From the NCBI GenBank assembly GCA_003558145.1, contig PWMP01000226.1:1-26280 (forward strand): 26,280 nucleotides of DNA, given 5' to 3'. Within the stretch, counting starts at the first letter, position 1, and each line of letters begins with the position of its first letter. The DNA is from Elusimicrobiota bacterium (GTDB lineage: Bacteria > CG03 > SLGR01 > PWQF01). Below the pieces are notes generated by a model that was not told where the DNA came from, searched no databases, and saw only the letters and a list, made by a program, of their open reading frames with translations. The position numbers and the translations under genes were made by a program. Positions 16,551 to 16,661 of this stretch are shown here, in pieces.

Positions 16551-16598
16551 AAAATTATCTCCTGTGTTTTATTAAAATACAACTGTAATTAAAACAGA

Positions 16599-16661
16599 AG
16601 ACATCATTGTCCGGAATTATTTCATTAAGGCGGGCTTTGCCTGGAAAGACTTCTTTGTCTT
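16599..16661 (-). ncRNA. Putative ANTAR-binding leader RNA (hairpins with A1/G4 loops) upstream of gltB
   Basis: Minus strand: AAGAC-AAAGAA-GTCTT (16661-16646) and GGAC-AATGAT-GTCT (16612-16599). The 14-mers GACAAAGAAGTCTT and GACAATGATGTCTT match at 12 of 14 positions. An ANTAR gene lies three genes upstream. Confidence 0.75.

What the first reader, a model, noticed from the sequence alone, without database searches (positions are those of the whole stretch)
16556..16603. Shine-Dalgarno-sequestering hairpin mutually exclusive with the last ANTAR hairpin: candidate translational ON switch
Seen: leader UGUCUUCUGU (16603-16594) pairs over 10 contiguous bp (2 G-U) with ACAGGAGAUA (16565-16556), which contains the gltB SD. 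The AU-rich interior can pair further (AAUUAC-AGUU-GUAUUU). The 5' arm includes the whole 3' arm (GUCU) of the AAUGAU hairpin, so only one can form. Only AUUUU follows before the AUG. Established: classic ANTAR RNAs (eut, nasF, amiE) overlap a terminator, while mycobacterial ones overlap the RBS and repress. Inference: ANTAR binding here would free the RBS and activate translation, possibly also relieving a weak terminator.
Basis: partly seen in the sequence, partly recalled or inferred. Interest (0 to 1): 0.8.

Follow-up and report, generated by a model that had tools for sequence, protein, structure and literature searches.

The report
ANTAR-gated ribosome-site hairpin before gltB
The mRNA leader of the glutamate synthase operon of an uncultured salt-lake Elusimicrobiota bacterium folds by default into a hairpin that hides the ribosome-binding site, and binding of the genome's single GAF-ANTAR RNA-binding regulator to an overlapping small hairpin should open it, which would be a natural translation-level ON switch for a protein family known mainly for antitermination.

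Summary
UGUCUUCUGU (16603-16594) pairs over 10 contiguous bp with ACAGGAGAUA (16565-16556), which holds the gltB Shine-Dalgarno AGGAG. The helix is in both the MFE and the centroid fold. Its 5' arm contains the whole 3' arm of the hexaloop hairpin GGAC-AAUGAU-GUCU.

The leader (sigma-70-type promoter, three A1/G4 hairpins, SD helix) recurs upstream of gltB in three other Elusimicrobiota species. Nine of the ten pairs are kept there, one through U-A/C-G double changes.

The same genome has two more ANTAR-type leaders:
- Before an ECF sigma gene, the last hairpin again competes with a 10-bp helix. That helix covers the SD-AUG spacer and part of the AUG and has no U-run.
- Before glnA there is a textbook terminator with U8.

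The genome (82% complete) has one ANTAR gene, a GAF-ANTAR 2.7 kb upstream. In four relatives this gene abuts the leader.

Best reading (about 0.6): default OFF by SD sequestration, and ANTAR binding turns translation ON. A weak terminator component at gltB cannot be excluded.

Limits: covariation rests on four sequences, there are no RNA data and nothing was tested experimentally. I class it as a new variant of a known kind. Four literature searches found only repression (mycobacteria) and a synthetic PAL device.

The parts
16670..16698 (-). Sigma-70-type promoter TTGACA (16698-16693), 17-nt spacer, TAGCAT (16675-16670). The predicted transcript starts a few nt before hairpin 1.
   Evidence: 10 of 12 matches. 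TTGACA plus a -10 box is conserved at the same place in all orthologous leaders.
16646..16661 (-). ANTAR-type hairpin 1: AAGAC-AAAGAA-GUCUU (hexaloop with A1 and G4).
   Evidence: Covariation over 10 related leaders: 3 of 5 pairs change on both sides.
16628..16642 (-). Conserved middle element AGGC-AAAGCCC-GCCU. GGC/GCC is invariant, and the 7-nt loop also has A1 and G4. It is probably a second protein-binding hairpin.
   Evidence: GGC/GCC is invariant in 10 leaders, so the pairing itself is not proven.
16599..16612 (-). ANTAR-type hairpin 2 (the last one): GGAC-AAUGAU-GUCU. This is the ON-state structure.
   Evidence: 3 of 4 pairs covary. Alone it is worth only about -3 kcal/mol.
16594..16603 (-). 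Anti-SD strand UGUCUUCUGU, the 5' arm of the sequestering helix. It overlaps the last loop base and the whole 3' arm of hairpin 2.
16566..16593 (-). AU-rich upper part of the OFF-state hairpin. It pairs imperfectly. Its sequence is not conserved, but it is also paired in the orthologues.
16556..16565 (-). 3' arm ACAGGAGAUA, containing the gltB Shine-Dalgarno AGGAG (16563-16559).
16548..16555 (-). Spacer AUUUU and the gltB start codon ATG (16550-16548).
12078..16550 (-). gltB (glutamate synthase large subunit, 1490 aa). It is the first gene of a tightly packed operon whose stop and start codons overlap or nearly abut (gltD, guaA, purS, purL and further genes).
19305..20000 (-). GAF-ANTAR regulator (231 aa), the only ANTAR gene found in this genome. 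It is separated from the leader by LemA and M48 peptidase genes.

Best explanation
The gltB leader is a protein-responsive RNA switch whose output is ribosome access. A near-consensus promoter makes a transcript that begins with three small hairpins carrying the ANTAR recognition signature: loops with A at position 1 and G at position 4. Without protein, the weak last hairpin loses to a longer hairpin in which its 3' arm plus five more bases pair with the gltB Shine-Dalgarno region. Translation of gltB is then blocked, and through the overlapping stop and start codons probably that of the following genes too. When the GAF-ANTAR protein is activated, it binds and stabilises the last hairpin. 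This removes half of the anti-SD strand, destabilises the rest and exposes the SD, so translation turns ON. The GAF domain most resembles those of PtsP and NifA, so the activating signal is probably a nitrogen-status signal such as 2-oxoglutarate or glutamine. Shown here: the structures, their mutual exclusion, their conservation, the paralogous leader and the gene linkage. Inferred: protein binding, the sign of regulation, the ligand, and that the output is translational rather than termination.
For: The helix is in the MFE and centroid fold and in the MFE of all four orthologous leaders. The ON-OFF difference is 2.5-4.7 kcal/mol, a cost that protein binding could pay. 92.5% of cells are paired in register, against 42-63% when the partners are slid. 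One pair is U-A in two species and C-G in two, and four pairs change on one side only, through G.U. The ANTAR hairpins covary over 10 leaders, with 0 of 500 shuffles reaching the observed values. A second leader in the same genome (C172, before an ECF sigma gene that precedes glnA) has two canonical A1/G4 hexaloop hairpins. In it, GUUCUCCAUC (the 3' arm of the last hairpin plus 6 nt) pairs over 10 bp with GAUGGAGAAU, which spans the SD-AUG spacer and the first two bases of the AUG. It has z=-3.6 and no U-run, and is conserved in four species with one compensatory pair. The U content after the gltB helix is low and not conserved: AUUUUAUG, UAAAUUAA, UUUAAUAU and UAAUUUAU. The stems are worth -10.6 to -13.5 kcal/mol. 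Terminators that follow ANTAR hairpins in the own glnA leader and in relatives have U6-U8 and fold at -20 to -40 kcal/mol with the adjacent hairpins. The consensus terminator scan does not call the gltB helix. There is one ANTAR gene per genome. All 9 phylum genomes with a leader hit at E below 0.06 carry it, and it directly abuts the leader in G001, G010, G008 and L162. Its GAF domain is nearest to PtsP- and NifA-type GAF domains.
Against: There is no experimental or RNA-seq evidence, and no RNA run holds the locus. With four sequences the covariation measures do not beat the shuffles (74/500; 119/500). Both arms are partly constrained for other reasons (hairpin 2 and the SD), which inflates apparent conservation. 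3.4% of genes in this genome have an SD-covering helix of 10 bp or more by chance, and the predicted SD pairing is not extreme (rank 74 of 546). Four U follow the helix in this genome, so some termination is possible. In the forced ON fold of G001 and G010 a residual 5-6 bp helix still covers the first G's of the SD. More distant leaders with the same hairpins (G003, G008, G006, G009, L162) show no SD helix, so this expression platform is confined to a few lineages.
Confidence: 0.6

Rival explanations
1. Classical ANTAR antitermination only. The long hairpin is an intrinsic terminator whose 3' arm happens to include the SD. ANTAR binding to the last hairpin prevents termination, and translation control is incidental.
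For: The topology is identical to eut, nas and ami leaders, with the 3' arm of the last hairpin inside the 5' arm of the alternative stem. AUUUUAUG follows the stem (5 U in 8) in this genome, and 5 in 8 follow it in G010 and G002. Homologous regulators in relatives, and this genome's own glnA leader, use true terminators.
Against: The U-run is short, interrupted and not conserved (G001 has UAAAUUAA), whereas the pairing with the SD is conserved. The stem is weak (-10.9 kcal/mol) and AU-rich, and the terminator scan does not call it. The sister leader of the sigma gene has the same design with no U-run at all. True terminators of this regulon have U6-U8 and lie upstream of the SD, not on it.
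Confidence: 0.2
2. The SD helix is fortuitous or only tunes basal translation or mRNA stability. The ANTAR protein acts on the leader in another way, for example through hairpin 1 plus the middle element, which are the most conserved parts.
For: Helices of this length over an SD occur in 3.4% of genes here. Relatives G009, G003, G008, G006 and L162 keep hairpin 1 and the middle element without an evident SD helix. Covariation is not significant at n=4.
Against: The helix starts exactly in the 3' arm of the last ANTAR hairpin in two unrelated leaders of one genome. It is kept in four species each, with compensatory changes. It is the MFE fold in all eight leaders.
Confidence: 0.13
3. ANTAR binding represses gltB translation, as in mycobacteria, by occluding the ribosome-binding region.
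For: Translational repression is the only experimentally shown translational mode for ANTAR.
Against: The last ANTAR hairpin ends 33 nt upstream of the SD and does not overlap the RBS or the start codon. Binding would remove, not add, pairing to the SD.
Confidence: 0.05

Closest known systems
ANTAR antiterminator leaders (EutV/eut of Enterococcus faecalis, NasR/nasF, AmiR/amiE, GnfR of Geobacter); Ramesh et al. 2012, PMC3369931
   Same: Both have tandem small hairpins with A1/G4 loops, with the 3' arm of the last hairpin shared with a competing downstream stem, and a cognate ANTAR protein. Both are tied to nitrogen metabolism. That paper already predicted ANTAR RNAs at glutamate synthase genes and raised possible control of translation initiation.
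   Different: Here the competing stem carries the Shine-Dalgarno sequence and lacks a proper U-tract. There are three hairpins, the middle one with a 7-nt loop, and 20-25 nt separate the middle element from the last hairpin. The sensor is a GAF domain, an architecture that was uncharacterised in that paper.
Mycobacterial ANTAR target RNAs (Rv1626/PdtaR; bioRxiv 10.1101/660928; review PMC12591593)
   Same: The ANTAR protein acts at the level of translation initiation on cis-leader RNAs.
   Different: In mycobacteria the dual hairpin itself overlaps the RBS or start codon, and binding represses. Here the hairpins lie upstream, and binding should release the RBS and activate.
Synthetic 'riboptoregulator' built on NmPAL, a PAS-ANTAR-LOV protein (PMC11381354)
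   Same: The logic is the same: a cis-repressing strand pairs with the SD, and binding of the NmPAL protein to an aptamer in that strand frees the SD and switches translation on.
   Different: That device is engineered, light-driven and uses a selected aptamer. The element here is natural, conserved in several species and built from canonical ANTAR hairpins.
Expression platforms of translational ON riboswitches (e.g. adenine add)
   Same: Both use a two-state leader in which a ligand-stabilised structure competes with an SD-sequestering helix.
   Different: The effector here is a protein that binds small hairpins, not a metabolite that binds an aptamer. This comparison is from my own knowledge and was not tested.

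Membership tests
ANTAR target RNA | Two or more tandem short stem-loops | tested here: met
   Hairpin 1, the middle element and hairpin 2. 94% of cells are paired and 7 pairs have double changes over 10 leaders, with 0 of 500 shuffles as high. The alignment was fitted to the model, so it leans towards the structure.
ANTAR target RNA | Hexanucleotide loops with A at position 1 and G at position 4 | tested here: met
   AAAGAA and AAUGAU. The orthologues have AACGAA, AAUGAA, AAAGAU, AAUGCU and AAGGCA. The middle loop has 7 nt (AAAGCCC), which departs from the rule but keeps A1 and G4.
ANTAR target RNA | The last hairpin is mutually exclusive with a downstream regulatory structure | tested here: met
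   Positions 16603-16599 are shared between hairpin 2 and the SD helix.
ANTAR target RNA | A cognate ANTAR-domain protein is encoded in the genome | tested here: met
   One PF03861 hit, at 19305-20000. All 9 phylum genomes with a leader hit at E below 0.06 have one ANTAR gene, and in four relatives it lies next to the leader.
ANTAR target RNA | Direct binding of the ANTAR protein to the hairpins | not testable with these tools
   This needs EMSA or footprinting.
Rho-independent (intrinsic) terminator | A stable G+C-rich stem followed at once by a run of about 6-8 U | tested here: not met
   The consensus scan does not call it. The stem is worth -10.9 kcal/mol and is AU-rich. The tail is AUUUUAUG, and the orthologues have 3-5 U in 8, interrupted. 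Compare U8 and -39.5 kcal/mol (whole glnA leader) in the own glnA leader.
SD-sequestering translational switch | The SD core is base-paired in the default fold and freed in the alternative fold | tested here: met
   Release is complete in the constrained fold of this genome and of G002. In G001 and G010 a residual 5-6 bp touches the first G's.
SD-sequestering translational switch | The pairing is kept in evolution through compensatory change | tested here: inconclusive
   9 of 10 pairs are kept in 4 species and one pair switches U-A/C-G 2:2, but 74 of 500 shuffles reach the same score. For the sister leader the figures are 100% paired, one compensatory pair and 119 of 500 shuffles.
Rfam families | A match to any curated covariance model | tested here: not met
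   Only chance-level hits with E above 1.

The most novel reading that the evidence does not exclude
One GAF-ANTAR protein runs the whole GS-GOGAT regulon of these small-genome Elusimicrobiota through two different RNA outputs in the same cell. At glnA it acts by classical antitermination. At gltB and at an ECF sigma gene it activates translation by pulling the anti-SD strand out of a sequestering hairpin. That would be the first natural case of an ANTAR protein switching translation ON. The GAF domain would read 2-oxoglutarate or glutamine directly.
Probability: 0.45. Interest if true: 0.7.

Novelty: new variant of a known kind. Interest (0 to 1): 0.6.

Why it matters
ANTAR proteins are textbook antiterminators, and the only shown translational mode is repression in mycobacteria. 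A natural leader in which ANTAR binding frees the ribosome-binding site would add the missing fourth quadrant: protein-dependent translational activation. It would show that ANTAR RNAs swap expression platforms as riboswitches do, here even within one genome (terminator at glnA, SD sequestration at gltB and at a sigma factor gene). It would also give a simple, testable model of nitrogen control in a poorly known phylum: a single GAF-ANTAR sensor governing glutamine synthetase, glutamate synthase and a 16-kb operon of glutamine-using enzymes. Finally, it would be a natural counterpart to the synthetic PAL-based translation switch.

Tried and rejected
- **Rfam.** A scan of the leader at E up to 10 gave only chance hits.
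- **Pattern scans for more leaders.** The genome-contig scan gave 23 hits. Only the four Elusimicrobiota MAGs already found are real, and the rest are coding-sequence chance matches. The metagenome-contig scan gave 67 hits, with one true hit identical to G009.
- **Generic regex for two A..G.. hexaloop hairpins within 15 nt.** The own genome has 41 hits against 28-39 in shuffles. The motif alone is therefore not informative without conserved context.
- **Thermodynamic outlier test.** The gltB SD is not extreme in pairing probability.
- **Contexts of further homologues.** P0015 and P0123 returned no DNA. L167 (gltB, 58% identical) has no ANTAR motif. L160 (G002) has its ANTAR gene away from gltB.
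- **RNA evidence.** No RNA holder is listed for the locus, only DNA runs from a salt-lake and a soda-lake metagenome.
- **SD helix in more distant leaders.** G003, G008, G006, G009 and L162 show no convincing one.
- **Earlier notes of this scan.** A word search found no ANTAR-related SD switch elsewhere.
- **Not used.** Structure prediction and complex prediction cannot address RNA binding.

Full report
**What is in the sequence**

On the minus strand the gltB gene (1490 aa; GATase_2, Glu_syn_central, Glu_synthase and GXGXG domains) starts at ATG 16550. Upstream lies a near-consensus promoter: TTGACA at 16698-16693, a 17-nt spacer, and TAGCAT at 16675-16670. The transcript should begin just before these elements:
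- Hairpin 1, AAGAC-AAAGAA-GUCUU (16661-16646).
- A conserved element, AGGC-AAAGCCC-GCCU (16642-16628).
- Hairpin 2, GGAC-AAUGAU-GUCU (16612-16599).

UGUCUUCUGU (16603-16594) pairs with ACAGGAGAUA (16565-16556) over 10 contiguous pairs, two of them G.U. The SD AGGAG (16563-16559) lies inside the 3' arm, and AUUUU follows before the ATG. The 5' arm contains the last loop base and the whole 3' arm of hairpin 2, so only one of the two structures can form. RNAfold places the helix, extended through the AU-rich interior, in both the MFE and the centroid fold.

**Is it more than chance?**

For the single sequence, only mildly:
- The whole leader has z = -1.2.
- An SD-covering contiguous helix of 10 bp or more occurs in 23 of 680 crude gene starts of this genome.
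- The predicted SD pairing probability of 0.87 ranks 74 of 546, and the -15..+3 window ranks 25 of 546.

The case therefore rests on comparison with other sequences.

**Relatives**

Record titles of the relatives name the phylum as Elusimicrobiota. The window's genome is a 1.42-Mb MAG, 82% complete, and DNA runs that hold the locus come from salt-lake and soda-lake metagenomes.

The same leader precedes gltB in G001 (same genus), G002 (same family) and G010 (another family of the order). It has a TTGACA promoter, hairpin 1, the middle element, hairpin 2 and the SD helix. In all four the unconstrained MFE contains the SD helix. Forcing the two hexaloop hairpins costs 2.5-4.7 kcal/mol, and hairpin 2 alone is worth only -2.3 to -4.7 kcal/mol.

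Pair counts on an in-register alignment give these results:
- 9 of 10 pairs are kept in all four species.
- 92.5% of cells are paired, against 42-63% when partners are slid.
- Four pairs vary on one side only, through G.U.
- One pair is U-A in G000 and G010 but C-G in G001 and G002. On the taxonomy this needs at least two double changes.
- The shuffle control is not significant (74/500), as expected with four sequences.

Both arms are also constrained by hairpin 2 and by the SD. The upper part of the hairpin differs in sequence among species but pairs in each.

**The hairpins are ANTAR-type**

A covariance model of hairpin 1, the middle element and hairpin 2 (R1) finds ten leaders in the phylum and one outside the held set. 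On their alignment 94% of cells pair and 7 of 13 pairs change on both sides, with 0 of 500 shuffles as high. The alignment was fitted to the model. The loops keep A1 and G4, which is the ANTAR recognition signature described by Ramesh et al. 2012.

The genome has one ANTAR gene, a GAF-ANTAR of 231 aa at 19305-20000. All nine phylum genomes with a leader hit at E below 0.06 carry a single ANTAR gene. In G001, G010, G008 and L162 that gene directly abuts the leader. In the window, LemA and M48 peptidase genes lie between them.

**A second and a third leader in the same genome**

R1 also hit contig C172 weakly. There a TTGACT promoter is followed by GCUC-AACGAA-GAGC, a 10-nt linker and GAAC-AAUGAU-GUUC. 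Then GUUCUCCAUC pairs over 10 bp with GAUGGAGAAU. This helix spans the spacer between the SD (AAGGAG) and the AUG, plus the first two bases of the AUG, of an ECF-type sigma factor gene. It is the MFE and centroid fold, with z = -3.6. GAAAUUAG follows it, so it cannot be an intrinsic terminator. The same leader precedes the orthologous gene in G001, G009 and G005. All cells are paired and one pair is compensatory, C-G to U-A.

Directly downstream, before glnA, lies a third ANTAR-type leader. It has GCGCC-AACGAC-GGCGC and then a hairpin overlapped by a very stable terminator with U8 (-39.5 kcal/mol, z = -5.4). So one genome with one ANTAR protein has a textbook terminator platform at glnA and two RBS-occluding platforms, at the sigma gene and at gltB.

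**Terminator or sequestrator at gltB?**

After the gltB helix come AUUUUAUG (G000), UAAAUUAA (G001), UUUAAUAU (G010) and UAAUUUAU (G002). The stems are worth -10.6 to -13.5 kcal/mol, and the consensus scan does not call a terminator there.

Homologous regulators in other organisms are followed by clear terminators (fold energies -20 to -33 kcal/mol). Four of these (L164, L165, L166, L169) have a U5-U8 run directly after the stem, and in L161 the run is interrupted (UUUAUUUU). Where the SD is evident it lies downstream of the terminator. Examples are L164, L165 (before gdhA), L166 (before a sigma-like gene), L169 (before gltB) and L161.

What is conserved among the four gltB leaders is pairing with the SD, not a U-tract. 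I therefore favour translational control. A weak attenuation component in G000 and G010 cannot be excluded, and both mechanisms give the same sign of regulation.

**How a switch at one SD could govern the operon**

The gltB stop overlaps the gltD start by 4 nt, and the gltD stop overlaps the guaA start in the same way. The following genes are separated by 4-5 nt or overlap. Translational coupling, and possibly polarity, could pass the signal down the operon. This is inference.

**The signal**

The GAF domain's best matches are PtsP (EI-Ntr) GAF structures and the NifA and PtsP models. From established knowledge, those GAF domains bind 2-oxoglutarate and/or glutamine. A nitrogen-status ligand is thus plausible but untested. 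The regulator family is large: 765 proteins at E of 1e-20 or better across several phyla, most about 400 aa. The short form of about 230 aa occurs in this lineage.

**Limits**

- More distant leaders that keep hairpin 1 and the middle element (G003, G008, G006, G009, L162) show no SD helix, so the platform is lineage-specific.
- In the forced ON fold of G001 and G010 a residual 5-6 bp still touches the first G's of the SD.
- Which hairpins a dimer binds is unknown.
- No RNA data exist for the locus.

**Comparison with the literature**

- Ramesh et al. 2012 predicted ANTAR RNAs upstream of glutamate synthase and other nitrogen genes. They noted that hits without terminators might control translation initiation. 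At that time no GAF-ANTAR had been characterised.
- In mycobacteria ANTAR RNAs overlap the RBS and binding represses translation.
- GnfR of Geobacter antiterminates nitrogen-fixation genes.
- A synthetic device based on NmPAL, a PAS-ANTAR-LOV photoreceptor, activates translation by releasing a cis-repressing anti-SD strand.
- Four full-text searches found no natural ANTAR leader shown or proposed to activate translation by anti-sequestration. This is absence in the searched library, not proof of absence.

**Verdict**

The element is a new variant of a known kind: an ANTAR target RNA with an SD-sequestering rather than a terminator platform. My confidence in the switch is about 0.75. My confidence that its main output is translational activation is about 0.6.

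Noticed in passing
G000 contig C172 2590-2672 (+) = L113:1506-1587: A second ANTAR-type leader in the same genome lies before an ECF-type sigma factor gene (168 aa) that precedes glnA. It has two canonical A1/G4 hexaloop hairpins. The 3' arm of the last one, plus 6 nt, pairs over 10 bp with the SD-AUG spacer and the start of the AUG. No U-run follows. It is conserved in G001, G009 and G005.
   Followed up: yes
L113:2147-2232 (G000 contig C172, between the sigma gene and glnA): A third ANTAR-type leader of the classical kind: GCGCC-AACGAC-GGCGC, then a hairpin overlapped by a very stable terminator followed by U8, 25 nt before the glnA SD (z = -5.4).
   Followed up: partly
L153-L158, inside the loop of the sigma-leader sequestering hairpin: A conserved CAC-AAYGAN-GU motif (a third A1/G4 hexaloop with a very short stem) follows the anti-SD strand in all six sigma leaders. 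If it is bound too, the anti-SD strand would be clamped from both sides.
   Followed up: no
window 16628-16642 (-) and all related leaders: The element GGC-A(A/G)(A/C)GC(C/U)N-GCC is invariant in its GGC/GCC over 10 leaders and has a 7-nt loop with A1 and G4. Its role (second ANTAR half-site or something else) is unresolved, because the pairing cannot covary.
   Followed up: partly
L122 (G003) and L123 (G008), about 2.7 kb upstream of gltB: In these relatives the same three-hairpin leader precedes a KaiC/dikinase-like gene (starting MVKVYTLMSTGL..LDEVIQG) that itself precedes gltB. A similar 856-aa gene closes the operon in the window (567-3137), so this orphan protein belongs to the ANTAR/GOGAT regulon in several genomes.
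   Followed up: no
L164:200-265: In an ENA contig a hairpin 1-like motif (AAGAC-AAAGAA-GUCUU) lies just upstream of the GAF-ANTAR gene itself, suggesting autoregulation there. A classical ANTAR terminator with U6 follows the gene.
   Followed up: no
window 16723-19266 (-): LemA and M48 peptidase genes sit between the ANTAR gene and the gltB leader. In G001 and G010 the ANTAR gene abuts the leader, so this pair looks like an insertion. NCBI contig PWQF01000021 (L159) also has a gene starting 5 nt after the ANTAR gene.
   Followed up: no
one search hit list: Close homologues of the regulator (50-65% identity) are mostly about 400 aa with an extra N-terminal region. They occur in Nitrospirota, Desulfobacterota-like, Coatesbacteria and Endomicrobiales MAGs. 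The 230-aa short form is confined to a few Elusimicrobiota.
   Followed up: no
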